Shown here piece after piece: positions 2,448 to 53,486 of a stretch of 64,000 nucleotides of DNA (position 1 is the stretch's first letter; the number at the start of each line of letters is the position of its first letter). The stretch lies in IMG/VR virus record IMGVR_UViG_3300044837_000085, positions 1 to 64,000 of that record; one strand, written 5' to 3'. The notes under the pieces are model-generated. The model was given only the letters and a program-made list of their open reading frames with translations. It had not been told where the DNA came from and ran no database searches. Origin of the DNA: a virus. The translations under genes were made by a program, and so were the position numbers.

Positions 2448-3494
2448 TCACCCATGATCGCTAACCCTAGGGTGTTCCCATTCGCCGCTGTAAAGTTCGT
2501 CATAGGTCGGGCTCTCATTTCCCGCGCCGATTCCGAGCAGCGAACGGAACGCGTTGAACGGGTAGAACCGACGATTAAACCGGAAGGTAAATTCGTTGAG
2601 GTAGGCTTGCAGGTGTTGCGGGCTGATCGCGCCGTGATGGGTGCCCTGCAGCCAAGCTTTGAGGTTGCTGAAAACAAGGTGGACGATGGGCAGGTATTCT
2701 TCTGCGACTTCCGGGTCGCCAGCTTCGACCACGGGAAGGTGATCAAATCCCCGCTTGGCGAGTGTCGCGTAGCTCGGCGCGGCATCGGTCACCACCATCG
2801 CGCCGGGCGCAACGGCGGCTTCGACGAAACCGACCAAAGACTTAGCCGTCCGGTCCGGGATGACTTCCATCCGCAGCCGTCCTGCGTAGCGCCCGCCCCG
2901 CCGCGTTGGCTTGTCGCCTTTCTTTGGTGGATGGGTGCGAACTTCGACGGCGGCGATCACAATCGACTTATCCTCGGCATGGGTGCCGCGCCCTTCACCA
3001 CGGATCGAGCCGCCGATGTAGGTTTCGTCAACCTCGACGTGATCGCGAACGCCGATAGCGCCGCCGATACGGTCCCGGCCTTGGCGGACCATTCCGGCGC
3101 GCAGCTTGTGCAAAATCTGGAAGGCGGTCTCATATCGCGAGAGGCCAAGCTGCCTCTGGAATTGCATAGCCGAAAAGCCCGGCGTCATACTGGAAACGAG
3201 ATAAGCGCCCCAAAACCACGTCGTCAGGGGCGTTCGGGTGCGTTCCATCACAGTCCCGGCCGTCAGAGCCGTGTCCTGCCTGCATGCCCTACAACGCAGA
3301 ACGCCGGGGCGGGCGGCGAACCGATACGGCTCGCCTTTGGCGTCGCACGATGCGCAGACGAATCCTTTTTGCCACCGCACGCGCTCCAGGTAGGCGGCGC
3401 AAGCGGCGTCGTCCGGGAACAGCTTTTGGAAGCTGGGCAGGGATTTGGGGAACGGCAGATGTTCCCATTTGAGTACGTCGGCATAGGGAGGCAT
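2448..3494 (-). CDS. IS1595-family (ISXO2-like) DDE transposase
   Basis: N-terminal Zn ribbon (CASC..CRAC), VEVDETYIGG, VVTD, HLQAYLNEFTFRFNRR. Confidence 0.95.
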   Translation of the reverse strand: MPPYADVLKWEHLPFPKSLPSFQKLFPDDAACAAYLERVRWQKGFVCASCDAKGEPYRFAARPGVLRCRACRQDTALTAGTVMERTRTPLTTWFWGAYLVSSMTPGFSAMQFQRQLGLSRYETAFQILHKLRAGMVRQGRDRIGGAIGVRDHVEVDETYIGGSIRGEGRGTHAEDKSIVIAAVEVRTHPPKKGDKPTRRGGRYAGRLRMEVIPDRTAKSLVGFVEAAVAPGAMVVTDAAPSYATLAKRGFDHLPVVEAGDPEVAEEYLPIVHLVFSNLKAWLQGTHHGAISPQHLQAYLNEFTFRFNRRFYPFNAFRSLLGIGAGNESPTYDELYSGEWEHPRVSDHG

Positions 3495-5626: not shown

Positions 5627-6577
5627 ATGGGTTACACTCATTATTTTCAGCAAAACCGCAACTTCACTAAGGCAGAATGGGAAATTGTTTCGGCCGATCT
5701 AAAGGCCATCGTTGACTACGCGCAACACGAATGCGGGATTCCGCTTGCCGGTGGTAGCGGCGAGGGCGGGACTACGCCCGAATTCGCCGGTAGCGTCATT
5801 TCGTTTAATGGCGTTGGCGATGACGCGCACGAAACTTTTATTATTCAGCGCGTTCGCGTTCTCGAAAGCTATCAAACGCCTGATCGCCTTGGTTGGTCGT
5901 TTTGTAAGACCGCGCGCAAGCCTTACGATGACGTTGTGACCGCTTGCCTTTGCTATCTTGGTTCGGTCACGCGCCGCGATTTGAACGGTGAACCTATCCT
6001 GGGGACGGAAGTCTTTAGCTCTAGTTCGGATGGTGACGGTTCCGACTTTCTTAACGGCCTAGACCTTGCGCGCAAGGCGCTACCGCGCGTAGCTAATCAA
6101 CTCGATATTCCCATGCAAGTCATGGAATCTGATCGATGGTGCGCGCCTTGGGTTAACGATACGGCCAAAGGTTACGAAGTGCACTTTTGCGTTGACGGTC
6201 GCGGCTATGTGCTGAAACCGAAAACCGGCGAATCCTATTGCTTCGAGTCGCATGTTGCTTTGGCTCAATTCCTGGAGGGAACGAAGCGCGTTGACTTCAA
6301 ACGAAGTCATATCGTTAGCTGGCATAGTTCATACCGGGAAGATTATCGGATTGAGCCGAATATCTGGAACGCAATGGGTTCATTCGACAAAGCGCGTCAC
6401 GCCCGGATTGCCAAAGCGCAAGCGAAGGTGTTGGCGAAACTGTTCCCCGTTGACCCCGCCTGCAGCCATCAACCGCCAGCCTATGTCCGGCCTGGCGAAA
6501 TGCCGGACAATGCGGGCCGCAAGTTTTGCTATAGTATAGCGGAACTTTTGGCTTCACTCGATACCAAGGCGGCTTAA
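5627..6577 (+). CDS. hypothetical phage protein
   Basis: MGYTHY...FCKTARKPYD phage-type motifs; gaaagga RBS. Confidence 0.75.
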   Translation: MGYTHYFQQNRNFTKAEWEIVSADLKAIVDYAQHECGIPLAGGSGEGGTTPEFAGSVISFNGVGDDAHETFIIQRVRVLESYQTPDRLGWSFCKTARKPYDDVVTACLCYLGSVTRRDLNGEPILGTEVFSSSSDGDGSDFLNGLDLARKALPRVANQLDIPMQVMESDRWCAPWVNDTAKGYEVHFCVDGRGYVLKPKTGESYCFESHVALAQFLEGTKRVDFKRSHIVSWHSSYREDYRIEPNIWNAMGSFDKARHARIAKAQAKVLAKLFPVDPACSHQPPAYVRPGEMPDNAGRKFCYSIAELLASLDTKAA

Positions 6578-20696: not shown

Positions 20697-20773
20697 TGGT
20701 ACTGACGCAGTGATTCGAACACTTTCCACGAGATTCACAGTCCCGCTGCTCATTGCCATCGAGCATCGTCAGC
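20697..20773 (-). tRNA. tRNA-His(GTG)
   Basis: loop CTGTGAA, TTCGAAT T-loop, A73, no encoded G-1. Confidence 0.85.
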
Positions 20774-20774
20774 A

Positions 20775-20845
20775 TGGTCGCGAACGCGCGTGTCGATCGC
20801 GCCTGACAGCCGTATGAAAACCGTTTCCTCGCCGGAGGGATCGCG
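20775..20845 (-). tRNA. tRNA-Met/Ile2(CAT), atypical
   Basis: loop TTCATAC, short D-arm, encoded CCA. Confidence 0.7.
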
Positions 20846-20852
20846 TTGATTT

Positions 20853-20926
20853 TGGCAGCCGGTGACTGAATCGAACAGTCGTTCCAGGATTCAAAGTCCC
20901 GTCTCTTGCCACTAAAGGAACCGGCC
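20853..20926 (-). tRNA. tRNA-Gln(TTG)
   Basis: loop CTTTGAA, TTCGATT, encoded CCA. Confidence 0.85.
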
Positions 20927-20931
20927 ATAAT

Positions 20932-21006
20932 TGGTAGAGCCTGCGGGTGCCGACCCCGCTCCTGCGACTTGAAAGGCCGCGATCCTAGCCGATAGACGAA
21001 GGCTCC
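20932..21006 (-). tRNA. tRNA-Glu(TTC)
   Basis: loop CTTTCAA, encoded CCA. Confidence 0.85.
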
Positions 21007-21011
21007 ATGAA

Positions 21012-21086
21012 TGGCGCGGACTGCGTGAATCGAACACGCTTCACTAGGTTGGAAGCCTAGGGCAACAGCCAATATACCAAGCCCGC
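21012..21086 (-). tRNA. tRNA-Gly(TCC)
   Basis: loop CTTCCAA, TTCGATT, encoded CCA. Confidence 0.9.
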
Positions 21087-22238: not shown

Positions 22239-23198
22239 GCTGTCTTCACCTTATCCGCCTTTAGGCGGGGAGGTTTTATCATTCGCCGCTACACTTCTGT
22301 GTGACGACGACAACGATCCCCATCCACTGCGCAATCTTAAATGCAATAAATAGGAGCGTTCCGTTGGCCGCCTGTCTACCAGCCCAACCGGACCACGTTT
22401 CTCCTTCTGGTTTTAGCCAAGTGGATGCTGAATTGCTCACTTCAGTTCTCCCGTCTCAACGAACCGCCACTCTCATTCAAAACCGCAAATTCGATATCTC
22501 TCCATTTCGTTTCAGGTGGGCCATCTTGCTTCCACCGTTCATAAAGCGACCTGTAAAATGGCAACCGCTCTACTGGCTTTAGTTCACTCCAGCACTGTTC
22601 GCAAAGTGGAAACATTCCGCGACCATCTGCATATTCCGTTGAGTGGCCTTCAACGAAATGCCAATTCGTATGACATCTGCTACACGCGCTATATCCTGGC
22701 GCGAACCAATCGCTGATGCGACCGATGCGCAGTTTGAAAACCACCTTGAGCCAGTAAAGCGGTTTCCACTTGGCGCACGACGGGCATAGTTGGGTCTGAC
22801 ACCATGCGCTCCCGTCATCGCTCAGGACGAAAACAGGCGTTAGCCACTTCGCTTGGATAACATCCCGCTCTTCGTCGATACCGCACCCGTGACAGGCGCA
22901 GGTAATACGGATTCGCCATGACCGCGGTTCTTCGCCATCGTCGCGCTTCCCGAACGTTCCGTGCATTACACCCTCCCCTGCCGTCTACTCGCAACCGCTT
23001 TCACCAATCGCCTAACCCCAGCAGGATCGTTGACCGATACTTTGTTTATCACGACCGGCGTCGGTTCCTTGATCGGGATTATCGTCCATGGCGTACAGAA
23101 GTCGCCGTCTCCCTGATCTGTTCCGAAACTCGCCGCTTCCTCTGCGGTTTTGAATGGGCCATGCAGAAGTCCTAGATATGAAACTACGAACATTGTCG

Positions 23199-23873
23199 TC
23201 AGCCTCTCTTTTGAACACCTCGATAAATTTTATCCCTCGTCGCATGAACTACTTTAGACCCACCTCTATCTGGAGGTGGAGCGTCTGTTACTTTTGCTTT
23301 TTCGGTTCGGATATTTCGAATGGGTCGAATTTCTTCGCCCGTCTTCGCGTCCGTTTTTGTTTTCGAGTCGGGCCACCACATATCCGCAAGCGCATCGAGT
23401 CCGTTTCTGAATTTCCACCCCGCTTGGCGAACGTATGGCGTCCACTCGCCATCGAATCTTGGATCATACAATTCGCGAGCCGCAGATTCGATCGACATTC
23501 CCAAAACCGTCACGCGATGAACAATTGCAAAATCGCGCGGATACAAACGTCTCTTGGCTTCGCTCACGGTTTCCGCAGCGAGTAGAAATGTCAGGGCTGG
23601 TGTCGGAGATAATCCTGACGATCCCCTAGCTCTATCAAAGTCCATTGATCCACCGGACGAAGCATAAGTCATATCGTGCGCGCAGCGATATCGATCGCCG
23701 GCCGCGTATTGCAGTTGAGATATCTGCCGACGATTAAACATCGATGTTAAACTATCCGAAACTCGATCGACGATTTCAGTAGATCCATCGAGTCGAGGAT
23801 GACTTACTTCATCACGCTCAGTCCTTGGTCTCGCAGTAGGCTTGGTCTCGCGCTTACGTTTAGTATTTGCCAA
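23199..23873 (-). CDS. phage transcriptional regulator-like protein (DUF6456-like)
   Basis: ISQLQYAAGDRYR...GMSIESAAR...FRNGLDALAD; probable TTG start after aggga. Confidence 0.6.
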   Translation of the reverse strand: MANTKRKRETKPTARPRTERDEVSHPRLDGSTEIVDRVSDSLTSMFNRRQISQLQYAAGDRYRCAHDMTYASSGGSMDFDRARGSSGLSPTPALTFLLAAETVSEAKRRLYPRDFAIVHRVTVLGMSIESAARELYDPRFDGEWTPYVRQAGWKFRNGLDALADMWWPDSKTKTDAKTGEEIRPIRNIRTEKAKVTDAPPPDRGGSKVVHATRDKIYRGVQKRG

Positions 23874-23914
23874 AAGCGTATTCCCTGATTTCAAACTTCT
23901 TTGGTCGAATACGC

Positions 23915-24181
23915 TGACCGAACCTGCCGTGCCATGCCTCACCTAAACGCGCCGATACCCGGCCTAAGCTTAACTCTCCCCACCGCACCTGCCACAACCA
24001 CACCCATCCTGACCGCACCTGCCGTTACCTACCTCAACACATCGCACCGCATCGCGCCGTGCCCTACCGAACCCCACCTGCCTGACCAGACCATTCCGAA
24101 CCTTTCCTTGCCAAGACGGACCCCACCTCACCTTGCCAGACCGGGCCGGACCAAATCATCGCCCGCCTTACCTGCCTCACC
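23915..24181 (-). ncRNA. 5-nt periodic GGY-NN array, putative guide-RNA locus
   Basis: 49 units all starting with G, 35 starting GGY, variable NN; five GGCA punctuation units. Confidence 0.75.
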
Positions 24182-24190
24182 TAGAAGGAT

Positions 24191-24214
24191 GCGCGCCGCC
24201 CGTAGGCAGCGCGC
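24191..24214 (-). promoter_or_regulatory. 10-bp GC hairpin with cUACGg tetraloop between RAMP stop codon and array
   Basis: gcgcgctgcc-tacg-ggcggcgcgc. Confidence 0.7.
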
Positions 24215-24221
24215 GTTATCG

Positions 24222-25068
24222 TTATTGGTTTGCCGAAGCGCCGTTCTGCTTGCCCTTCGCCTTGATCGCCGGAAGTTTCTTCATCGCAGCGCTGACTTCA
24301 TCGGACGGAACAACCTTCTCGCGGTTCTTTACTTCCTGCTGGAACCAAGTCAGCAGCTCCTCGGTTTCCGCATCGTAAGTATCTGCGTCTGCGATGGCCT
24401 TGATCTGAGCCGCCCGTCCTTGCGTCTTTTTTTTTTTCACAATGCGGATGAACTCCTCGTCGCGGTCATCGGCTACGCGGAATTTGCCGTAACTCATTCC
24501 CTTTTGCGGACGACCGTCGCCTATGCCAACAATGATGCCGGCGGCGGCAAGGAGGTTGATGACCTGACGCTCCTTGATTAGGCTGGACACGAACGAAACC
24601 TCGATCGTGCAAGCCCACTCAGGGAAGATCGCACGAGTCCGGACGTCCGGCGTCCGCGCCATATCACTGGAGCGGACCATCGCCATGTGAAGCTTTGGAA
24701 CGCCGAACACATTGATCTGCGTCCACGCTTGTCAGGCGAAGCATCTGACTTTTCGACGCGTCAGGAATATCGAGCGCGGCGTTGGCAATCGCCTTTGAGA
24801 AGGTTTCGGACGGTAGATGAACGCGCGAAGGCGTACTGTCATCCCGATTCAGGTAGATCGTATCACGGAATTCAGAGATCGGGTCGTGCTTCAGGTTCGA
24901 TGCTTTTTCAGCCCGGTTGACCGGACCTTTCGGCATCAACAATTCCCGCCGCGCCTTTGCACTGAAGCGGTGCATCAGCAGCGGCGTCGTTCCAACGATA
25001 TTGCAACGCAGACGACCCATTGAGATTTCCTGTATCTCGATTGCCGCTGTCTCTTTCTGTTTAGCCAT
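24222..25068 (-). CDS. stand-alone RAMP / Cas7-like RNA-binding protein (about 282 aa), frameshifted near 24722
   Basis: IVGTTPLLMH first strand, HLPSETFSKAI, C-terminal G-rich loop AGIIVGIGDGRPQKGMSYGKFRV; two overlapping ORF halves. Confidence 0.7.
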
Positions 25069-25394
25069 TGTCATTGTCTCCATCAGCGCTCGGCGCTAGC
25101 AGGCCCCGAGCACAAGGGTTCGTTTTCACGAAACCGAGCGCCGATGAAGCGATCGATTGTCGTGCTCTGACCGCGCTGCTAGACGCGGGTTCAAATTGTT
25201 CAAAACTCATATTCACTCTCACAAAAGTTTCTGCGGCAACTTCGTCTTCATCCACTTCACCGCACAATCGATGCTGCAGAAGTCCACACCGAACGCAAAG
25301 GGTGCCTGCGGTATTTCAATCGATAAGCATATAGGCCCGTAGAGATCGCCTACCGGCTTCTCGCATTGATCGCAGCGAAATTTGGTCTCGCGGC

Positions 25395-25589
25395 TCATAC
25401 GGCTCGCTTCGCGATCTGATACCCAATAACGAACGCCGCAACCTTGACCCGGCTCCGTCCCGCTTCTTCATGTGCGAGCCGGATCAGCTTCTGAGTGACA
25501 CCGAGTTTCTTGGCGAGGTATTTTATCTCATGCTTCTCGCTGGAGAGAAGCTTGCGGTCCATTTTGTGTGTTCGCTTCTTCATTGTCAT
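25395..25589 (-). CDS. DUF3606-like small protein
   Basis: DR.....EKHEIKYLAKKLGVT...IR.A....GRSR.KV. Confidence 0.65.
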   Translation of the reverse strand: MTMKKRTHKMDRKLLSSEKHEIKYLAKKLGVTQKLIRLAHEEAGRSRVKVAAFVIGYQIAKRAV

Positions 25590-26365
25590 GATCCTTCCGT
25601 TTTAATTATCCAATAGTCCGATCCGTACTTCGATGATCCGAGATAGGCTTGCGGTATGAAGCAGTCACCCTTGCTCCCCCACGTCGCGCTCCACGAATTT
25701 CGTGCCGTGAAGTGATTGGCATGCTGGTTGTAGCCGCAAATATAAACGCAATGTCCGCCCAACATCGCTTCTCCGGTCTTCGGCATCGGCACGATTCCGG
25801 TAGATGCAACAGCATCGCTCTCGAAACTCTCGAATACCGCGAACCCGACGATCACCGGATATCCAGCAGCAAGCGCAGACTTGATGGCGTAGGTTGATAT
25901 CGCTACGCGCTCGTAGCTGATCGCGCGAAACTTCACCGCATCCGCATAAGCGCTCGCTGGCGGCTTGGTTTTGAATTTACCAATCGAGTACGGCCACAGC
26001 TTCTCATGTGCGACGCCAATTTTAGCGGCGCATTTGATCCCATCACGGATCGATGCGCCCGCATCTGATTGAACCGTGCCCTCCATGTTGCGTTCGTCGT
26101 AGTAAAGCTGGAGGCGCGACATGGGAAAATCTTTTTGGCCGGCGTTGATCAGCGCGTGACGAAGCGCGCCGGTTATGCCGTGGCTTGTGCAAGCGCCCAG
26201 GGCACCTTGGTCCATCACTGGCGGGCAATGCGCGCGTAAATCCACAACTGCCGGAATTCTCGCCACAGTCGGCACGTAGAGATGATCGCGCGGATCGCGT
26301 AAATCTCTGATGCAGCCGTACCAGGCGTTGCGATGTTCCGATTTGGTGGTCTTTGATGAAGTCAT
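25586..26365 (-). CDS. C1 (papain-like) cysteine peptidase
   Basis: VDLR, DQGALGACT, GGHCV, RNSW catalytic motifs. Confidence 0.9.
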   Translation of the reverse strand: MTSSKTTKSEHRNAWYGCIRDLRDPRDHLYVPTVARIPAVVDLRAHCPPVMDQGALGACTSHGITGALRHALINAGQKDFPMSRLQLYYDERNMEGTVQSDAGASIRDGIKCAAKIGVAHEKLWPYSIGKFKTKPPASAYADAVKFRAISYERVAISTYAIKSALAAGYPVIVGFAVFESFESDAVASTGIVPMPKTGEAMLGGHCVYICGYNQHANHFTARNSWSATWGSKGDCFIPQAYLGSSKYGSDYWIIKTEGS

Positions 26366-26842
26366 GACGATGTTTCCTCTGGTGAGATCAAAGCCCTCGC
26401 ATTTATTGTTGCTGTCGTATCGGAATATCCAGCAGCTTCCCACGTCCGGTAAAAGGCGCACATCTTGCCGCGTTCGAATTCATTCCTGACGCCACCGTGA
26501 AGGCATTCTGTTAATTCACGATCGATAAATGTCTTGAGGTCTTGGCGATATCGCTCGCGTCGATATCCGCGCTTGAACTCGCCGATGAAATCTCGGAACG
26601 CGCTCACGCTGCACTCTCCGGTTTGCATCCTTTTGCGTCGTAATTTTCCAACGCGAGTTTTACGAGTATTCGATCTCCGGACCTCGCCGCAGCAATGACG
26701 GACAACATCCGGTAGTAGTGATCGGCGTAGACGGTTTGAAGCGCGGGCTCGCCTACTCTCATTGACCACATCGGAGCTGGTGCCATCTCTACCGCTTTCG
26801 GTAGTTCAAATCGTTTATAGTTCTTTGGAATTTTGAAGGGCT

Positions 26843-27139: not shown

Positions 27140-28104
27140 GCCGCAGCCTCATCGTCAGAGGATCCGACACGTTCGCCGAAATCATTGAAACCTTCAGCCC
27201 AGAGCGTCGCGAAGTACCAACCGCGGCGCCCGGTAACCCGGCCGTTTTCATCTTTGTGATCGCAAATCTGTGTGCCGTGCCCGGTTCGCTCAAACGAGAC
27301 AGTTTGGTGCGAATTCCATTCTTCGGTGCCCTCGTCTACCCAGACCTTTCCGTTCGACACGATCTGTAGATGGGGAATCAGTTCGTGAGCTGACATCACA
27401 GCGCTATCGCAATAGACCAGCGAGACCATGTCTTCTTTTCGATTAAGCAGCGGCGTACAGGCCGTGGAAATCGTATTTGGCGAAATGCCGGCGGCGAGCC
27501 AGACATCGATCTGATTGAGATCGGGGACCGACCACTTCTTCCCAGATCGGATCGCTGCCAACATCACGCGAAGTGCAAGTGCCTGTTTTTCATGGCCTTC
27601 GTCCAATTCAACCGCCTCTGCAGCCGCAGTGGCTTTGGAAGTGGAATTTGGTTCTTGCTTCTTTGTTTTATCCCTAGGCTTTTTGGGAGGGTTAACCCCA
27701 CCCTTATCATCATTAATCAATTCAGGATTACCACCAGTTGAACCCCAGTCCTTTGCCTGTTGCGCCTTAGCTCGATCTCGAACCATCTTCCTAGAATAGA
27801 TCACCTTGTCTTCGGTGCGGCTGTAAACTCCGGCAACTTCGAGCTCGCACATATATTTCATGACTTCAGGCAGACCGATGCCAGCAAGTTGAGCCAACTG
27901 CTTGTTACTGACGGCGATGCCGTTGTTGATCAGATGCCCGTATGGCTCAGCGTCGTGCATGATGCATAGCATCTCCATCCACAGGCCGCGGGCGCCGATT
28001 GTGCAAAGGCGCAGCTTCGTATTCCCTCGCCAGTTAGCCGGGAAAAACTTGAACCAAGGATGCTTGTCTTTAGGCTTCGCCACTATAGCTTGCTCTCTGC
28101 CCAT
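27136..28104 (-). CDS. phage replication initiator-like protein
   Basis: PWFKFFPANWRG...ARGLWMEMLCIMH...IYSRKMVRD...GGNP. Confidence 0.75.
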   Translation of the reverse strand: MGREQAIVAKPKDKHPWFKFFPANWRGNTKLRLCTIGARGLWMEMLCIMHDAEPYGHLINNGIAVSNKQLAQLAGIGLPEVMKYMCELEVAGVYSRTEDKVIYSRKMVRDRAKAQQAKDWGSTGGNPELINDDKGGVNPPKKPRDKTKKQEPNSTSKATAAAEAVELDEGHEKQALALRVMLAAIRSGKKWSVPDLNQIDVWLAAGISPNTISTACTPLLNRKEDMVSLVYCDSAVMSAHELIPHLQIVSNGKVWVDEGTEEWNSHQTVSFERTGHGTQICDHKDENGRVTGRRGWYFATLWAEGFNDFGERVGSSDDEAAA

Positions 28105-28634
28105 TCGATGACCTGTTTGGCGCAACCGAGTGGATCTCGCCAAAGTTCAGACCCGGTAAATCTGAAAATCTCATAACCGTTTTCTTGAGCCTCGCGGTCG
28201 CGAGCGCGATCCTTTGCTGCTTGCTCTTTTGTTCGTTCGTGGAAGTCGTGGCCGTCGCACTCGACAATAAGCTTCTTCCAGCCAACGACTCCGGCCCCTG
28301 GATTTCGAAGCCAACTGGCATGCGCGTGAACGATGAAATCGACACGCCAATCTGGAAGCTGCGCCTGCTTCTCGACTATGAGCCATTCACTGGCGTCTTT
28401 ACGAGTTTTGTAGCGTTCGATATTCTCGCTCTTAACGAACACCGCCTTGGTGTACCAAGTGTCCTTTACGTATTCGAGCCGTAAAACGACGGCCGTAAAT
28501 AGAAGCCTCTCGATTGGAGTGTCGCCGTAGTTAGCTAAACCTTCTCCCTTACTACCGCACCTGAATGCCACAGCGCCTGCAACATGGTCTAATATCTGTT
28601 GTTGAAGCAGTTCAAATCCAAAAACCTTTTCCAT
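28083..28634 (-). CDS. DUF559/Vsr-like endonuclease
   Basis: RVDF, IVECDGHDFHE, DRARDR, RFTGSE. Confidence 0.8.
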   Translation of the reverse strand: MEKVFGFELLQQQILDHVAGAVAFRCGSKGEGLANYGDTPIERLLFTAVVLRLEYVKDTWYTKAVFVKSENIERYKTRKDASEWLIVEKQAQLPDWRVDFIVHAHASWLRNPGAGVVGWKKLIVECDGHDFHERTKEQAAKDRARDREAQENGYEIFRFTGSELWRDPLGCAKQVIEWAESKL

Positions 28635-30535
28635 CACGAAACGACCCCCTCCATTGCGCCAACAGCCTCGCAAGTCGGAGTCCCCTCACCCTCAACCCGA
28701 TCCAACCCCCGCCAGAATTCCGTGCGGAACGTCTCCCGCAATCCGTCCCATTCGTGCCACGTCACCTTGACAAGCCCGCATCGCAAGCACTCGCGCTCCG
28801 TCTTTCTCGGCAGTGCGACTGCGTTTGGGACTCGTGTTGGCTCGCTCCATGTGTGGCGCGTCATGGCTTGCATCCCTCGATCAGCGCTGAGAACGACTTA
28901 ACCGGAACGGCCGAGCGGCCCATGTCCTTTACGAATACGCGGCAAGGATTGTTAATATCCCTTGAAACTTCGGCGTAGCTCGAACCGCCTTCGGTTTCGA
29001 AGCCGTGGTCGCTGCAGCCAGCGAGCATCAACACAGCAACCATTAACAGTGCGGTTGCGTTGGGGACGCGGGTTGGATCTGCCCATGAGTGGCGCCCGCG
29101 CTTATTCATCGGCCTGCCCCGGCAGCGTAATCTTTCGCTTTTGCTTTAGACCCTTCGCTCTACGGAGTAGCCCCATCTTGGTCCCGACAACGGCGAACCT
29201 TGGGAATTTCAAAGATCGTTTTCGTCCAACCCGGCTTCTGGTGTTCCCATGAGGGTCCGACTGCTCGGAAATCTCTTCGAGCGCTTCGATTTCATCGTTC
29301 ATACCGCATCCCCATCCGCATTGATCTGCGCGCCGTAGAGGCGGTTTGGTGCAACCAATGGTTTGAAGTAGTAGCCGGGATCATCGGTCAGAACGTCTGG
29401 CTCAAGCTGGCTAATCACACAGTCACCGATCGCATATATTTGGCGGCCATCCTCCATATCGAGGTGCGTTGGCTTTTCGAAATGATAGCGACCCGGCTTT
29501 GCATTCCGGACGACTGGAAAGCCGCTTGACATAGGGCGATAGTAAATAGTCTCACCCTCAGACGAGCCAAAGTAATCCGGGAGGATTGGCGTAAACCCCG
29601 CCATAGAGCGTATGGCGTTTGGCGTCATTGCGGTAGACGCCAACTCTTTCGCCACCGCAGGCGCAACCAACGGTGCCGCAGCTAATAGTCCGAAGAACTC
29701 CCGACGTGATGTCATGGCTGCGCCCTATAGCAATGGACGAATATTGGTTTTTCGTTAGCGCGCGATTCCATCGTCGCCGTGAACGTGATTGTCCACAGCC
29801 GTTCGAACGGAAGACCGTTTTTGATCGGCCATCTGATCGCGATATCCGCAACGTTGGTCCGGCGATCAACAGGCCCGCGGTATAACCCGTCGATGTTCTT
29901 GCAGGTTCCGTACCACTGGCCGGATTTACCCTTCTCGATTACAATCCTCATGACGGGACGCGCTCCAATTCATGGATCGGGCAATCCGAAGAGAGATGCA
30001 GTTGCTCCGGCCATCGACGTTGTTCCGGGCATGTGCAGCCAAGTCCAATCGCCTTCTCGCTCCATGGAAACGGGTCGAAGTCGCGAGCCTTCGCGTCTGG
30101 CGGAATATCGCAAACGAACACGCTCATGCCGCGGACTCCTTCGCCTTCTCGCGGGCAATCCGCCGGCCGCGCGCTATCAGTTCCCGAGCTTCGTCTTCAT
30201 CGCATTGCAACAGGCCCTTGACGGACGCGACGCGCTCCGCTTTCGGCAGCATCCTTGCCACTTCATTGGCGATTCCAGCTTTCACATCGCGCATTTTGTT
30301 GTCGGATACTTTTTTCATTTCGTTTCACCTGAAACGTGTTTCACATGAAATAGACGTCGATACTCTCGAGCCATGCGGGCTTGCTCCGCTCGCCAGCGCC
30401 GCTGATAGGCGGCATGGCATAGGTGACAGAGCCGCTGTCCTTGGCGATCATGCGTCGCGTTACACTCGGCACAGAGCGGCGTGCCGTCTGGAACGCCCAG
30501 CGACTGCCTCCTGCGAGTCTGGTAGGTAGCAGCCA

Positions 30536-37183: not shown

Positions 37184-37725
37184 GCCACCCTCGCGAATTC
37201 GCCAAAGTGCTCATGAGCCGCGCGGACATATGCGGAGTGCGCCTCTTCCGCAGTATGGAAGTAGCCCAGGAAAATGAGACGCTTGTTGCCGTTCTCGTTG
37301 ATCTTTATTTGACTTCGCCACTTCATGCCTTTGCGACAGGCGTGATAGAACGCGCCCTTCAATCCGGCGCGATTGTTCGATTGAGCTCCCCTGTTCTGCT
37401 TTTGCTCGGAAGATGTCGCTATCCGGAGGTTGTCGATGGCATTATTGGAAGGATCGTTATCCTTGTGATCTATTTCGGCGCCGCCGATCTGGATTCCATG
37501 AATATAAATCCAAGCTAGCCGATGCGCGGCAAACTGCCCAAGTCCTTTAACGCCAATGTAAATATAACCAAGCCGCCTCTTGGTCCCTGCGATATCTCCA
37601 GCCTTTCTCTTGCCGCCGCGCGTATCATTCTTCCAGCGGAATATTCCTGTCGCGTGATCGTAGCTAAACAGTTCGTGCAACAGCGCTTGGTTGGGAAGCT
37701 TACGCAATCGACCCTCCAAGCTCAC
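37180..37725 (-). CDS. HNH endonuclease with AP2 domain
   Basis: [33 protein letters not shown]. Confidence 0.9.
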
Positions 37726-38953
37726 GGGTTATCGCTTCGACATCGGCATTAAGCTGAGCGTCAATTCTGCGCAGTTCGCTTATCTTTTTAGCGCCGTGAT
37801 AAACCGAACTGTGATCTCTTCCGCCGAACCTGCGGCCAATCTCCGGCAGAGACTTGAGGGTCAGCACCTTCGAAAGATAATAACCAACTTGGCGCGGCCT
37901 CACGACGGCTGCGGTACGTCGCGCCGACAGAATGTCGGAACGAGTCACGCCATAATGCCGGGCGCAAGCTACCTGTATTTCGTCGATCCTGATCTTGCGG
38001 GGTTCCGTTGGAAGTATCAGATCGCGTATTTCGCGCTCCGCCATATCCAATGTGATGACGCATTCATTGAGTTTGCTTTGAGCCAAAAGCCGATTGACTG
38101 CGGCCTCGATGTCGCGCCCGCATTTGACAACCGCGCCTACAATGAATTCCCGAACCGTATCCGGGATATCAAACGTCGGATGATAGAGCCGCGCAGCCTC
38201 GATCCGATGCTGCAGAATGTCTATCCGTTGCTCCTCAGCCGGCCTTCCGATCTCAACGACAAGGCCAGCGACGAGGCGCGATCTGGTCCTTTCATCCAGT
38301 ATCTCAAGATCGCTCGGCAAACGGTCGGCGGCTAGGACAACTTGTCTGCCACCATCGAGCGCGGCGTTTACCGTATGACAGAACTCGGCATGGGTCGGTT
38401 TGCCCTGCAGGAACTGGAGGTCGTCGATGATAAGCACGTCAAGACAGCGAAGCGAATGTTTGAACTCCACCGCCGCTTGCCGCTTGATCGAGTCAAAGAA
38501 GCTGTAGACGAATTTTTCAGCCGTGAGATAAAGCACCTTGCGGTCTTCGCAATTTCCCGCCAGCGCGATTGCTTGGAGTAGATGTGTTTTGCCGAGCCCT
38601 ACGCCAGCATGAATGTAGAGCGGATTGAACATGACCGGATCGCCACGGCGTCCGTCAGCGATCTGACGGGCTGCGGCATGGGCAAGATTGTTGCTGCGAC
38701 CAATTGAAAATCCGGCGAAGGTGAGCCGCGGATCAAGCGATGACCCTCCCAGGTCATGATGCGCCTTGGCGTCGGCCATCGGATCTTTCGCACGGACGAT
38801 CGCGGCCTTCGGCACAGGGATATCCAGCATGACGGTTGCTTTCCGCGGTGAATTGAAAAGACGGTCTCGGCGGTCCTTGCGCGCAGCGATGCGTTCCGTG
38901 AGCGGGACGTCGAGATAGGGGTCGTGCTGAACGAGCATCGCAATTGCTTCCAT
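37700..38953 (-). CDS. dnaA: DnaA homolog (AAA+ domain III and DNA-binding domain IV)
   Basis: [47 protein letters not shown]. Confidence 0.92.
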
Positions 38954-46687: not shown

Positions 46688-47346
46688 TTCTTAGAGGCGA
46701 ACCGGCGAAGCTGGCGAGCCTTTACGGCTCCGGCTCCGGCTCCGGCTACGGCTCCGGCGACGGCGACGGCTCCGGCTCCGGCTCCGGCTCCGGCTACGGC
46801 TACGGCTACGGCTCCGGCTCCGGCTCCGGCTACGGCTACGGCTACGGCTACGGCTCCGGCGACGGCGACGGCTACGGCTCCGGCTCCGGCGACGGCTCCG
46901 GCTCCGGCTCCGGCTACGGCTACGGCTCCGGCTCCGGCTCCGGCTACGGCTCCGGCTACGGCTACGGCTCCGGCTCCGGCTACGGCTCCGGCTCCAAAGA
47001 CTATTGGCAAGCCACTATTCTTAACTTCGCGGCTAAATGGCCAGAAGCCCAGCGCGCAAGGCTAACCGACGCGAAGTTAAGCGGAGCAACGATCGCCTTT
47101 TGGCGATCGAGCGACAAGGGTCTCCCGTCAAACGGCGGCGGGAAGATCGAGCCCGCTGCGCCCGGCGTGATCCATACCGCACCAGGGCCACTGCAAACCT
47201 GCCACAGCGGTACGCTGCACGCGACGCTGATCCCACCGAAATGGGAGGGGGCGCGCTGGTGGATCGTCGCGCTTCATGGCGAAGTCGTCGGTGATGAAGA
47301 AAAGTATGGCTGCCTGAAGCGTGAAATCTTGGGCGAGGCGACATGA
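46675..47346 (+). CDS. Gly-Ser/Tyr/Asp repeat protein
   Basis: (G-[SYD])n tract followed by a globular domain. Confidence 0.7.
   Translation: MEPVILRGEPAKLASLYGSGSGSGYGSGDGDGSGSGSGSGYGYGYGSGSGSGYGYGYGYGSGDGDGYGSGSGDGSGSGSGYGYGSGSGSGYGSGYGYGSGSGYGSGSKDYWQATILNFAAKWPEAQRARLTDAKLSGATIAFWRSSDKGLPSNGGGKIEPAAPGVIHTAPGPLQTCHSGTLHATLIPPKWEGARWWIVALHGEVVGDEEKYGCLKREILGEAT
46726..46995 (+). repeat. coding hexamer tandem repeat GGC(TCC/TAC/GAC)
   Basis: about 45 in-frame units. Confidence 0.95.
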
Positions 47347-53408: not shown

Positions 53409-53486
53409 GCGCTCGTAGCTCAGCCGGATTAGAGCAGCCGCCTTCTAAGCGGCAGGTCGCAGGTTCGACTCCCGCCGAGCGCACCA
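53409..53486 (+). tRNA. tRNA-Arg(TCT)
   Basis: canonical cloverleaf, loop CTTCTAA, TTCGACT, encoded CCA. Confidence 0.95.

What the first reader, a model, noticed from the sequence alone, without database searches (positions are those of the whole stretch)
23915..25146. Candidate non-CRISPR RNA-guided system: solo RAMP/Cas7-like gene followed by a GGY-NN pentamer array
Seen: a minus-strand gene of about 282 aa (25068-24222) has RAMP-like hallmarks (IVGTTPLLMH, HLPSETFSKAI, terminal G-rich loop GIGDGRPQKGMSYGKFRV). Eight nt after its stop is a 10-bp cUACGg hairpin, then a 267-nt non-coding array with 5-nt period. No cas1/cas2/cas3, no adjacent nuclease and no classical repeat-spacer array are present. 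Established: RAMP/Cas7 proteins polymerise along guide RNAs with a fixed nucleotide footprint per subunit. Inference: each subunit binds the constant GGY and displays the variable NN, so the NN dinucleotides jointly encode a gapped target, giving programmable binding or repression, for example against rival phages. From memory, this matches a recently reported phage system called VIPR; I could not verify that here.
Basis: partly seen in the sequence, partly recalled or inferred. Interest (0 to 1): 0.97.

Follow-up and report, generated by a model that had tools for sequence, protein, structure and literature searches.

The report
Phage VIPR locus with broken vipr

Summary
Observation confirmed and interpretation supported. 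The minus-strand locus 25180-23872 is a VIPR system (Vipr RAMP protein plus GGY/NN vrRNA array), a class published in three 2026 bioRxiv preprints. This scan has already noted VIPR-like loci in at least 297 other genomes.

- **Array:** the 54-unit GGY-NN chain (24181-23917) is the only one in the 104.6-kb phage genome. It scores 16.5, against at most 4.0 in shuffles.
- **Protein:** its family profile aligns over the whole SUSP1-type Vipr family (hhalign 99.1%, E 7e-19). The model of the closest intact homolog matches Csm3/Cmr4/Cas7.
- **Relatives:** 102 of 138 homolog loci carry same-strand pentamer arrays, against 1 on the opposite strand.

Features of this copy:
- vipr is split by a clean 5-nt deletion. 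It is recent or an assembly artefact, since dN/dS is 0.04-0.06 on both halves.
- The ~160-aa accessory gene found in most relatives is absent.
- The array shows the family's 'GGC-A-GG' junction grammar, giving blocks of 19, 12, 6 and 13 units.
- One block matches the phage's own neighbouring gene at 20 of 24 positions under the 1-nt-skip code, in codon register.
- A covarying structured leader that pairs with the vipr Shine-Dalgarno sequence lies upstream.

No other natural target was found. Verdict: new member of a known kind, modest interest.

The parts
25072..25180 (-). Conserved structured 5' leader directly upstream of vipr. It has a 17-bp long-range helix whose 3' strand contains the Shine-Dalgarno GGAG, plus an internal hairpin.
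   Evidence: RNAalifold on 5 loci. Covariance model R1 finds it immediately upstream of the vipr start in 5 further loci: L123, L125, L103, L122 and L059. 93% of cells pair, against at most 42% when partners are slid. 15 pairs show double changes, against 1-5 when slid, and 0 of 500 shuffles reach the observed score. No Rfam family matches.
24724..25068 (-). vipr, N-terminal part (codons 1-115, frame A; that frame runs on into 20 junk codons and a stop at 24664). It holds RRM strand 1 with the GTTPLLMH motif and the helical insert.
   Evidence: 90% identity to P0004 residues 1-119. dN/dS against L129 is 0.043.
24722..24723 (-). Frameshift site. Five bases (TGTCG in L129, TGTCT in L130) are missing between these two bases, and the homolog residues Val-Ser are lost.
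   Evidence: DNA alignment with L129 and L130 and protein alignment A1.
24222..24722 (-). vipr, C-terminal part (frame B, open to the TAA stop at 24224-24222). It holds the thumb hairpin, helix 2, the G-loop GIGDGRPQKG and a C-terminal helical extension.
   Evidence: 90% identity to P0004 residues 116-281, no stops. dN/dS is 0.061. hhalign to SUSP1 Vipr covers this region.
24427..24437 (-). A11 homopolymer. It is a 9-nt in-frame insertion (three extra Lys) relative to all aligned homologs.
24191..24214 (-). GC-rich hairpin (10 bp, UACG loop) 7 nt after the vipr stop. The equivalent hairpin follows the stop in the closest relative L129, where the accessory gene comes next.
23917..24181 (-). vrRNA array of 54 GGY-NN units. 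Single-A 'GGC-A-GGT' junctions at 24176, 24082, 24023, 23993 and 23928 cut it into blocks: B1 24172-24079 (19 units), B2 24078-24020 (12), B3 24019-23990 (6) and B4 23989-23925 (13), plus short end pieces.
   Evidence: The same junction grammar is seen family-wide. The array start motif GGTGAGGCAGG is shared with L129.
23872..23914 (-). Weak terminator-like stem-loop (8-bp stem GCGUAUUC/GAAUACGC, long loop, then UUUU) at the 3' end of the array.
   Evidence: z -1.7 only. The consensus terminator scan did not call it. This part is inferred.
23668..23702 (-). Best 1-nt-skip match of guide block B4, at 20 of 24 NN positions. It lies inside the adjacent gene 23873..23199 (224 aa, DUF6456-like), with NN on codon positions 1-2 and the skipped base on the wobble position (peptide AGDRYRCAHDMT).
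   Evidence: (0 of 500 shuffled guides reach 20).

Best explanation
The locus is a VIPR system of a clade other than SUSP1's type II, carried by a 104.6-kb phage whose host is probably Bradyrhizobium-like. Shown here: a Vipr-family RAMP gene, a same-strand GGY-NN array immediately downstream, and the family-wide association of the two. Inferred from the published mechanism: the array is transcribed with or just after vipr and is cut at or near the 'GGC-A-GG' junctions into about four vrRNAs of 6-19 repeats. Vipr protomers polymerise one per pentamer, burying GGY and presenting NN. The filament then binds double-stranded DNA whose sequence reads NN-x-NN-x and represses transcription there. In this assembly the vipr reading frame is broken by a 5-nt deletion upstream of the thumb and G-loop, so no full-length Vipr can be made from it. 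Both halves show strong purifying selection, so the lesion is very recent, a minority variant or an assembly error. The accessory gene present in the closest relative is absent. One guide (B4) spells the conserved motif AGD[K/N]YRSAY[D/E][I/M]T of the family of the neighbouring gene. The phage's own copy matches at 20 of 24 positions. A 78%-identical homolog from another contig fits 11 of 12 residues. This suggests B4 is aimed at the alleles of related rival phages.
For: Literature: the VIPR definition and mechanism. Fold: the AF2 model of P0004, the closest intact homolog (90% identical to each half of the window gene by tblastn), has pLDDT 86.8 and pTM 0.81. The Foldseek rows shown are all Cas7-type subunits of type III and type VII CRISPR effector complexes (Csm, Cmr), best E 2e-6. 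VIA gives Z 9.7, 9.3 and 8.9 to Cmr4, Csm3 and type VII Cas7. Homology: the A2 profile's only significant PDB sequence hit is 36pp 'SUSP1 Vipr protein', E 9.6e-6. hhalign A2 against the SUSP1-type family A10 gives 99.1%, E 7e-19 over 169 columns, covering SUSP1 residues 1-188. Aligned pairs are H17 with the H of LLMH, R138 with R147, and D177/R179 with D186/R188. Array: unique in the genome, 16.5 against at most 4.0 in shuffles. Association: 62 of 80 IMG/VR loci and 40 of 58 genome or metagenome homolog loci have same-strand chains, against 0 and 1 on the opposite strand. The unit logo is G .94, G .87, Y .93, N, N. 'GGC-A-GGC' makes up 371 of 664 four-nt steps, and the median block is 49 nt. 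Frameshift. Selection: dN/dS 0.043 and 0.061 with dS about 1.2. Accessory gene: 36 of 38 intervening ORFs form one family. It is present in L129 and was not detected in the genome by tblastn (best E 0.26). B4. In 301 guides from relatives, matches of at least 80% to the own locus are at control level, 2 against 1-3.
Against: No expression, processing or binding data exist for this clade. The guide boundaries are inferred from junction grammar and a figure legend on 'staggered arrays'. As assembled, the protein is truncated before its RNA-binding elements. 16 of 54 units are not strict GGY. The G-loop Trp that stacks on G2 in SUSP1 Vipr is Gly here, although Gly occurs in 56 of the 120 best family hits. 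No conserved 3' tail was identified. Apart from B4, no guide has a match above the null in the own genome or in 138 homolog loci. Guide patterns also found nothing in IMG/VR or in 301 genomes. The B4 match is a single hit found after testing several guides and skip rules. DNA for the better-fitting homolog P0248 could not be fetched.
Confidence: 0.85

Rival explanations
1. The VIPR system is fully functional. On this reading the 5-nt gap is an assembly or consensus error or a minority variant, and the phage makes full-length Vipr that uses the array as published.
For: dN/dS is 0.04-0.06 on both halves. The frame downstream of the break stays open for 169 codons with 90% identity to P0004. Intact homolog loci without an accessory gene also exist, for example L010, L017, L048, L054, L060 and L063.
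Against: The gap is a clean 5-nt loss outside any homopolymer, which is not a typical sequencing-error signature. This copy has a second unusual change, a 9-nt A-run insertion, and it lacks the accessory gene of its closest relative.
Confidence: 0.4
2. The array now acts as 'solo' vrRNAs. With vipr dead and no accessory gene, the transcripts are loaded by Vipr proteins of co-infecting or resident related phages and redirect them, as reported for VIPR-null SUSP1-like phages and satellites.
For: The October 2026 preprint documents vipr-vap1 deletions with retained solo vrRNAs. Here the array is kept while vipr is broken. Vipr homologs occur in Bradyrhizobium and other alphaproteobacterial genome contigs, possibly prophages, so trans-acting Vipr is plausible in the likely host.
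Against: The frameshift is too recent for selection to have shaped a solo lifestyle. No guide matches rival vipr, accessory genes or arrays above the null in 138 loci.
Confidence: 0.12
3. Self-targeting caused the loss. Guide B4 matches the phage's own neighbouring gene, and repression of that gene selected for inactivation of vipr, by analogy with degenerate CRISPR loci that carry self-targeting spacers.
For: B4 matches 20 of 24 positions in codon register, 220 nt from the array, and 0 of 500 shuffles reach that. Self-locus matches are at control level in 301 guides of intact relatives.
Against: This is a single match with four mismatches, and the mismatch tolerance of this clade is unknown. 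The analogy is untested, and the match is equally explained by targeting of rival alleles.
Confidence: 0.1
4. The locus is not a guide system. On this reading the G-rich pentamer tract is a chance or structural repeat, or coding sequence, next to an unrelated RRM protein.
For: TRF does not call the tract. A plus-strand ORF (23901-24581) overlaps it.
Against: A 5-nt period is incompatible with coding. The tract is unique in the genome and far above shuffles. The same tract with the same strand bias accompanies homologs in 102 of 138 loci. The protein is homologous to a solved Vipr.
Confidence: 0.02

Closest known systems
VIPR type II of Escherichia phage SUSP1 (Vipr ALH47069.1, vap1 ALH47068.1; PDB 36pp; bioRxiv 10.64898/2026.04.26.720920 and .720927)
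   Same: Both have a lone RAMP protein with RRM, thumb and G-loop, and profile homology covers the whole SUSP1 protein. Both have same-strand GGY-NN pentamer RNAs next to the gene, a phage carrier, and no cas1 or CRISPR array. The relatives' gene order of vipr, a ~150-160-aa gene and then the array mirrors SUSP1.
   Different: The protein is ~281 aa against 195 aa, with a ~15-aa N-terminal and ~80-aa C-terminal helical extension. The G-loop reads GDGR instead of GDWR. The accessory family of this clade is unrelated to vap1 (hhalign 0.15%) and is absent from the window. Arrays are continuous and punctuated by GGC-A junctions rather than discrete ~100-nt vrRNAs with a pseudoknot tail. The VIPR type (I, III-VII) could not be assigned because the classification figures and tables are not held.
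'Staggered' vrRNA arrays of VIPR (fig. S18 legend of 10.64898/2026.04.26.720920)
   Same: The array is continuous and successive guides abut. The register slips by one base at each junction (a 4-nt unit), and block sizes are typical of vrRNAs, with a family median of 49 nt.
   Different: Only the legend could be read. Whether the published staggered arrays use the GGC-A junction or belong to this clade is unknown. The window's blocks are irregular (19, 12, 6 and 13 units) and richer in GGT and degenerate units than most relatives.
VIPR-null phages with solo vrRNAs (bioRxiv 10.64898/2026.10.15.759431)
   Same: Guide RNAs are retained without a working vipr or accessory gene. One guide fits a relative's allele better than the phage's own.
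   Different: There, vipr-vap1 is removed by an old, inherited 1,114-bp deletion in Enterobacteriaceae phages. Here vipr is still present, under purifying selection until very recently, and broken by only 5 nt.
Cas7-type backbone subunits of class 1 CRISPR effectors (Csm3, Cmr4, type VII Cas7)
   Same: These are the best structural matches (Foldseek E 2e-6; VIA Z 8.9-9.7), with the same RRM, thumb and G-loop architecture.
   Different: There is no CRISPR array, no cas1 and no other cas genes. The repeat footprint is 5 nt with 2 read bases rather than 6 nt with 5 read bases. Sequence identity is only 8-16%.

Membership tests
VIPR (Vipr + vrRNA) | Protein with RAMP fold: RRM core, thumb hairpin and glycine-rich loop | tested here: met
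   The AF2 model of the 90%-identical intact homolog P0004 has pLDDT 86.8. The Foldseek rows shown are all Cas7-type subunits of type III/VII CRISPR effector complexes, E down to 2e-6. VIA Z reaches 9.7. The secondary structure shows beta1-alpha-beta-hairpin-alpha2-G-loop-beta4.
VIPR (Vipr + vrRNA) | Sequence homology to an experimentally characterised Vipr | tested here: met
   The only significant PDB sequence hit is SUSP1 Vipr 36pp, E 9.6e-6. hhalign to SUSP1 Vipr gives 95.9% and to the SUSP1-type family 99.1%, E 7e-19 over 169 columns.
VIPR (Vipr + vrRNA) | GG-reading residues reported for SUSP1 Vipr (H17, R138, D177, W178, R179) | tested here: inconclusive
   H, R, D and R align with identical residues. 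W178 is Gly in the window and in P0004. In the 120 best family hits this position is G in 56 and W in 47, so Gly is a common natural state whose effect is unknown.
VIPR (Vipr + vrRNA) | Adjacent tandem YNNGG / GGY-NN repeats (at least 4 units) on the gene's strand | tested here: met
   54 units, 38 of them strict GGY, start 41 nt after the stop. The array is unique in the genome and scores 16.5 against at most 4.0 in shuffles.
VIPR (Vipr + vrRNA) | Protein-array association conserved across homologs, with constant GGY and variable NN | tested here: met
   102 of 138 loci have same-strand arrays, against 1 on the opposite strand. The logo is G .94, G .87, Y .93, with near-uniform NN.
VIPR (Vipr + vrRNA) | Intact vipr open reading frame | tested here: not met
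   A 5-nt deletion between 24723 and 24722 shifts the frame. Frame A stops at 24664. This concerns the function of this copy, not family membership.
VIPR (Vipr + vrRNA) | Accessory vap gene in the operon (typical, not universal) | tested here: not met
   The clade's ~160-aa accessory family (A3) was not detected in the genome by tblastn (best E 0.26). It is present in the closest relative L129. Some intact relatives also lack it.
VIPR (Vipr + vrRNA) | Conserved structured 3' tail capping each vrRNA | tested here: inconclusive
   No tail was recognised. Blocks end in a GGC-A junction, and only a weak stem-loop follows the array. The paper reports other architectures, staggered and ribozyme-spaced. 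No hammerhead or other Rfam match was found.
VIPR (Vipr + vrRNA) | Natural targets readable by the 1-nt-skip rule | tested here: inconclusive
   One guide (B4) matches 20 of 24 positions in codon register in the neighbouring gene, seen only under skip 1. Other guides have no match above the null.
VIPR (Vipr + vrRNA) | vrRNA transcribed, processed and bound by Vipr; double-stranded DNA binding and repression | not testable with these tools
   This needs small-RNA sequencing, pull-down and reporter assays.
Class 1 CRISPR-Cas | CRISPR repeat-spacer array and adaptation or other cas genes | tested here: not met
   No CRISPR-like tandem repeat is in the window, no Cas1 is in the 104.6-kb genome, and PADLOC gave no hits.

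The most novel reading that the evidence does not exclude
The conserved leader is a new cis-regulatory RNA. Through it, Vipr or the vrRNA load would autoregulate vipr translation by opening or closing a helix that buries the Shine-Dalgarno sequence. The window's array, left without its protein, would persist as trans-acting solo vrRNAs. On this reading they are loaded by Vipr of related Bradyrhizobium-type phages and aimed at a conserved motif of a DUF6456-like gene in those rivals.
Probability: 0.12. Interest if true: 0.55.

Novelty: new member of a known kind. Interest (0 to 1): 0.3.

Why it matters
VIPR is a very recent discovery: RNA-guided DNA recognition with a gapped code, proposed to predate CRISPR. 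Experiments so far centre on the type II systems of SUSP1 and a Pseudomonas fulva prophage, plus small-RNA sequencing of type III and V loci. This locus adds nothing categorical, but it documents four things about a large, uncharacterised clade of ~281-aa Viprs (620 proteins, 571 IMG/VR stretches):
- **Array grammar:** GGC-A junctions about every 49 nt, which gives a testable prediction for processing sites.
- **Accessory family:** a confidently folded protein with no match in Pfam or PADLOC and none in the PDB at Foldseek E <= 0.001.
- **Leader RNA:** a covarying 5' leader that pairs with the vipr ribosome-binding site, suggesting translational control.
- **A fresh lesion:** vipr is broken while the array is intact, and one guide reads a conserved motif of the neighbouring gene's family. 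This bears on how VIPR loci decay or turn into 'solo vrRNA' loci.

Tried and rejected
**Family and RNA libraries**
- Pfam gave no family above its curated cut-off for either half, for P0004 or for the accessory protein, and PADLOC gave none. PHROGs gave only an unknown-function family.
- Rfam at E <= 1 over 23000-26000 returned nothing, so no hammerhead spacers and no known leader.
- tblastn against INPHARED phages found only two distant Gordonia phage hits.

**Unavailable or uninformative steps**
The 21-kb contig carrying P0004 and P0260, and the contig of P0248, could therefore not be fetched.
- VIPR type assignment failed. The text and the one held supplement carry only legends, not trees or tables.
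- The accessory family's model (pLDDT 94) has no Foldseek PDB hit at E <= 0.001, only weak winged-helix-like rows.

**Target hunting under the 1-nt-skip rule**
- B1 and B2 scored at the null level in the own genome.
- No guide exceeded the null in 138 homolog loci, so there is no sign of targeting rival vipr, accessory genes or arrays.
- Exact IMG/VR scans with four guide patterns found 0 hits.
- The B1 core with up to 3 mismatches found 0 hits in 301 genomes of the Bradyrhizobium family.
- P0248 was not found in 121 sampled Bradyrhizobium genomes.
- IMG/VR homologs of the neighbouring gene match B4 no better than the phage's own copy.

**Readings rejected**
- The secondary period-5 peak near 3026 lies in an uninterrupted coding-like stretch on the minus strand and is not an array.
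- The plus-strand ORF 23901-24581 over the array is a by-product of the repeat.
- The accessory family is not homologous to SUSP1 vap1.
- The G-loop Trp-to-Gly change is not a sign of decay, because Gly is common in the family.
Full report
**Context.** The window is the first 64 kb of a 104,614-bp linear IMG/VR virus record that CheckV rates complete. It carries phage-like genes and a tRNA cluster. Its DnaA is 62-64% identical to the DnaA of Bradyrhizobium-like genomes. The gene next to the array has 65-66% identical homologs on a Bradyrhizobium elkanii chromosome and plasmid. The host is therefore probably Bradyrhizobium-like. This is an inference.

**Observation.**
- On the minus strand, 25068..24222 is 847 nt and reads as two ORFs in frames one base apart.
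- Seven nt after the TAA stop lies a 10-bp hairpin with a UACG loop (dG -23.9 kcal/mol, z -4.0).
- From 24181 to 23917 runs a chain of 54 pentamer units. 38 are strict GGY, five steps are 4 nt and one is 6 nt.
- A purpose-built chain finder gives this tract 16.5. It is the only chain scoring at least 5 on either strand of the whole genome, and 20 block-shuffled genomes reach at most 4.0.
- Period-5 power of minus-strand G is highest here.
- The genome has no Cas1, and the window has no CRISPR-like repeat.

**What it is.** VIPR systems were reported in April-October 2026. They consist of a Vipr protein (an early-branching RAMP) plus vrRNAs of 9-16 YNNGG repeats. One protomer binds each repeat, GGY is sequestered and NN is presented. 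[quoted passage not shown] I tested membership in three independent ways.
1. **Fold.** The closest intact homolog P0004 is 281 aa, and each half of the window gene is 90% identical to it by tblastn. Folded with a 40-sequence alignment it gives pLDDT 86.8 and pTM 0.81. The Foldseek rows shown are all Cas7-type subunits of type III and type VII CRISPR effector complexes (Csm, Cmr), E down to 2e-6. The Foldseek-independent search gives Z 9.7 (Cmr4), 9.3 (Csm3) and 8.9 (type VII Cas7).
2. **Sequence.**
   - The family profile's only significant hit among all PDB sequences is 36pp, 'SUSP1 Vipr protein', E 9.6e-6.
   - Against a 27-member SUSP1-type Vipr alignment (sequences), hhalign gives 99.1%, E 7e-19 over 169 columns. 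This covers residues 1-188 of the 195-aa SUSP1 protein.
   - The residues that the structure paper says read the two guanines (H17, R138, D177, R179) align with identical residues.
   - W178 is Gly here, but Gly is the commoner state in this clade, 56 against 47 of the 120 best hits.
3. **Association.**
   - Same-strand GGY chains occur in 62 of 80 IMG/VR homolog loci and 40 of 58 genome or metagenome loci. The opposite strand has 0 and 1.
   - Across those arrays the unit logo is G .94, G .87, C/T .93, then two near-uniform positions.

**Anatomy of the clade and of this copy.**
- In most relatives the gene order is vipr, then a translationally coupled ~155-166-aa ORF, then the array. This mirrors the SUSP1 order of vipr, vap1 and vrRNAs.
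- 36 of the 38 such ORFs form one family. It has no Pfam or PADLOC match, a confident model (pLDDT 94.4) without a significant PDB neighbour, and no detectable relation to SUSP1 vap1.
- The window's genome gave no tblastn match to this accessory family (best E 0.26).
- The closest intact relative, metagenome contig L129, is 80% identical in DNA through vipr. It has the same post-stop hairpin followed by this accessory gene. Its array then opens with the same GGTGAGGCAGG motif as the window's.
- Some intact relatives also lack the accessory gene, so its absence is not by itself decay.
- Family arrays have a clear grammar. 4-nt steps are overwhelmingly 'GGC-A-GGC' (371 of 664), and successive junctions lie a median 49 nt apart, about ten units.
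- The window has five such junctions (GGC-A-GGT), giving blocks of 19, 12, 6 and 13 units. That the blocks are individual guides is inferred.

**The break.**
- Against L129 and L130 the window lacks exactly five bases between 24723 and 24722, in the stretch ...AGCGTGG|ACGCAG.... This removes Val-Ser and shifts the frame.
- Frame A ends 20 codons later. The thumb, helix 2 and G-loop lie downstream, so no RNA-binding Vipr can be made from this sequence.
- The copy also has a unique in-frame 9-nt expansion that creates an A11 run.
- dN/dS against L129 is 0.043 for the N-terminal half and 0.061 for the C-terminal half, at dS about 1.2. The lesion is therefore very recent, a minority variant or an assembly error. 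I put real against artefact at roughly even odds.

**Targets.**
- Using the published rule, blocks B1 and B2 have no match above shuffled-guide nulls in the phage genome, and no block exceeds the null in 138 homolog loci.
- Guide patterns gave no hit in IMG/VR, and the B1 core gave none in 301 genomes of the Bradyrhizobium family.
- Block B4 is the exception. It matches 23702-23668 at 20 of 24 positions, only under skip 1 (skip 0, 2 and 3 give 17). None of 500 shuffled guides reaches 20.
- The site lies in the adjacent co-oriented gene 23873..23199 (224 aa, DUF6456-like). NN falls on codon positions 1-2 and the skipped base on the wobble position, the register reported for natural VIPR targets.
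- Decoded, B4 spells A-G-[DE]-[KN]-Y-R-S-A-Y-[DE]-[IM]-T. The family motif is AGDRYRxA[HWFY][DE]MT. The phage's own copy fits 9 of 12 residues, while a 78%-identical homolog, P0248, fits 11 of 12. The decoding idea came from earlier notes of this scan.
- In 301 clean guides from relatives, matches of at least 80% to their own flanks are at control level, 2 against 1-3. The B4 match is therefore unusual.
- I read it as a guide aimed at rival alleles of this gene, with partial self-avoidance. Self-regulation, or self-targeting that favoured loss of vipr, remain possible. It is one hit found after several tests, so it is suggestive only.

**Leader.**
- Upstream of vipr, 25180-25072 is more conserved in DNA than the protein is. 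Bradyrhizobium loci whose Vipr is only 38% identical still align there.
- RNAalifold predicts a 17-bp helix whose 3' strand contains the GGAG Shine-Dalgarno sequence, plus an inner hairpin.
- A covariance model finds the element immediately upstream of the vipr start in five further loci.
- 93% of cells pair, against at most 42% in slid controls. 15 pairs carry compensatory changes, against 1-5. The alignment was fitted to the model, which flatters these numbers.
- Rfam has no match. A translational control element for vipr is the likely role. This is inferred.

**Verdict.** It is a new member of a published class that this scan has met many times. The copy itself is freshly broken or mis-assembled. 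The array grammar, the accessory family, the leader RNA and the B4 match are modest additions.

Noticed in passing
window 25072-25180 (minus); also L108:3893-4000 and 6173-6283, L109, L100, L123, L125, L103, L122, L059: A ~109-nt covarying structured RNA lies directly upstream of vipr in an alphaproteobacterial subclade. Its long helix pairs with the Shine-Dalgarno sequence. It has no Rfam match. L108 holds a second copy 1.4 kb downstream of vipr.
   Followed up: yes
L003-L143, e.g. L041:3756-4232, L129:~965-1480: A ~160-aa accessory protein family is coupled to vipr in most relatives. Its model is confident (pLDDT 94) but has no Pfam, PADLOC or significant PDB match, only weak winged-helix-like rows. 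It is unrelated to SUSP1 vap1.
   Followed up: partly
window 23199-23873 (minus): A DUF6456-like 224-aa gene (phrog_21451, unknown function) with 47 homologs, including ones on a Bradyrhizobium elkanii chromosome and plasmid. Its homolog P0260 has the same longest-contig length (21,276 nt) as the closest Vipr P0004, which hints at a shared contig.
   Followed up: partly
window 24427-24437 (minus): An A11 homopolymer inside vipr, created by a 9-nt insertion unique to this copy. It is a potential slippage-prone tract.
   Followed up: partly
window 20697-21086 (minus) and 53409-53486 (plus): A phage tRNA cluster (His-GTG, Gln-TTG, Glu-TTC, Gly-TCC) lies 2.1 kb downstream of the VIPR locus. A separate tRNA-Arg-TCT lies further on.
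   Followed up: no
window 46723-46995: A hexamer tandem repeat CGGCTC x45 (90% matches). It is probably a Gly/Ser/Tyr-rich low-complexity coding repeat.
   Followed up: no
window 25586-26461 (minus): A papain-family (Peptidase_C1, E 1e-13) cysteine protease gene lies two genes upstream of vipr, which is unusual cargo for a phage.
   Followed up: no
window 28083-28673 (minus): A DUF559 / REase_MTES_1575-like endonuclease-fold gene.
   Followed up: no
window 37700-38953 (minus): A phage-encoded DnaA, 62-64% identical to the DnaA of Bradyrhizobium-like genomes. It was used here only as a host indicator.
   Followed up: partly
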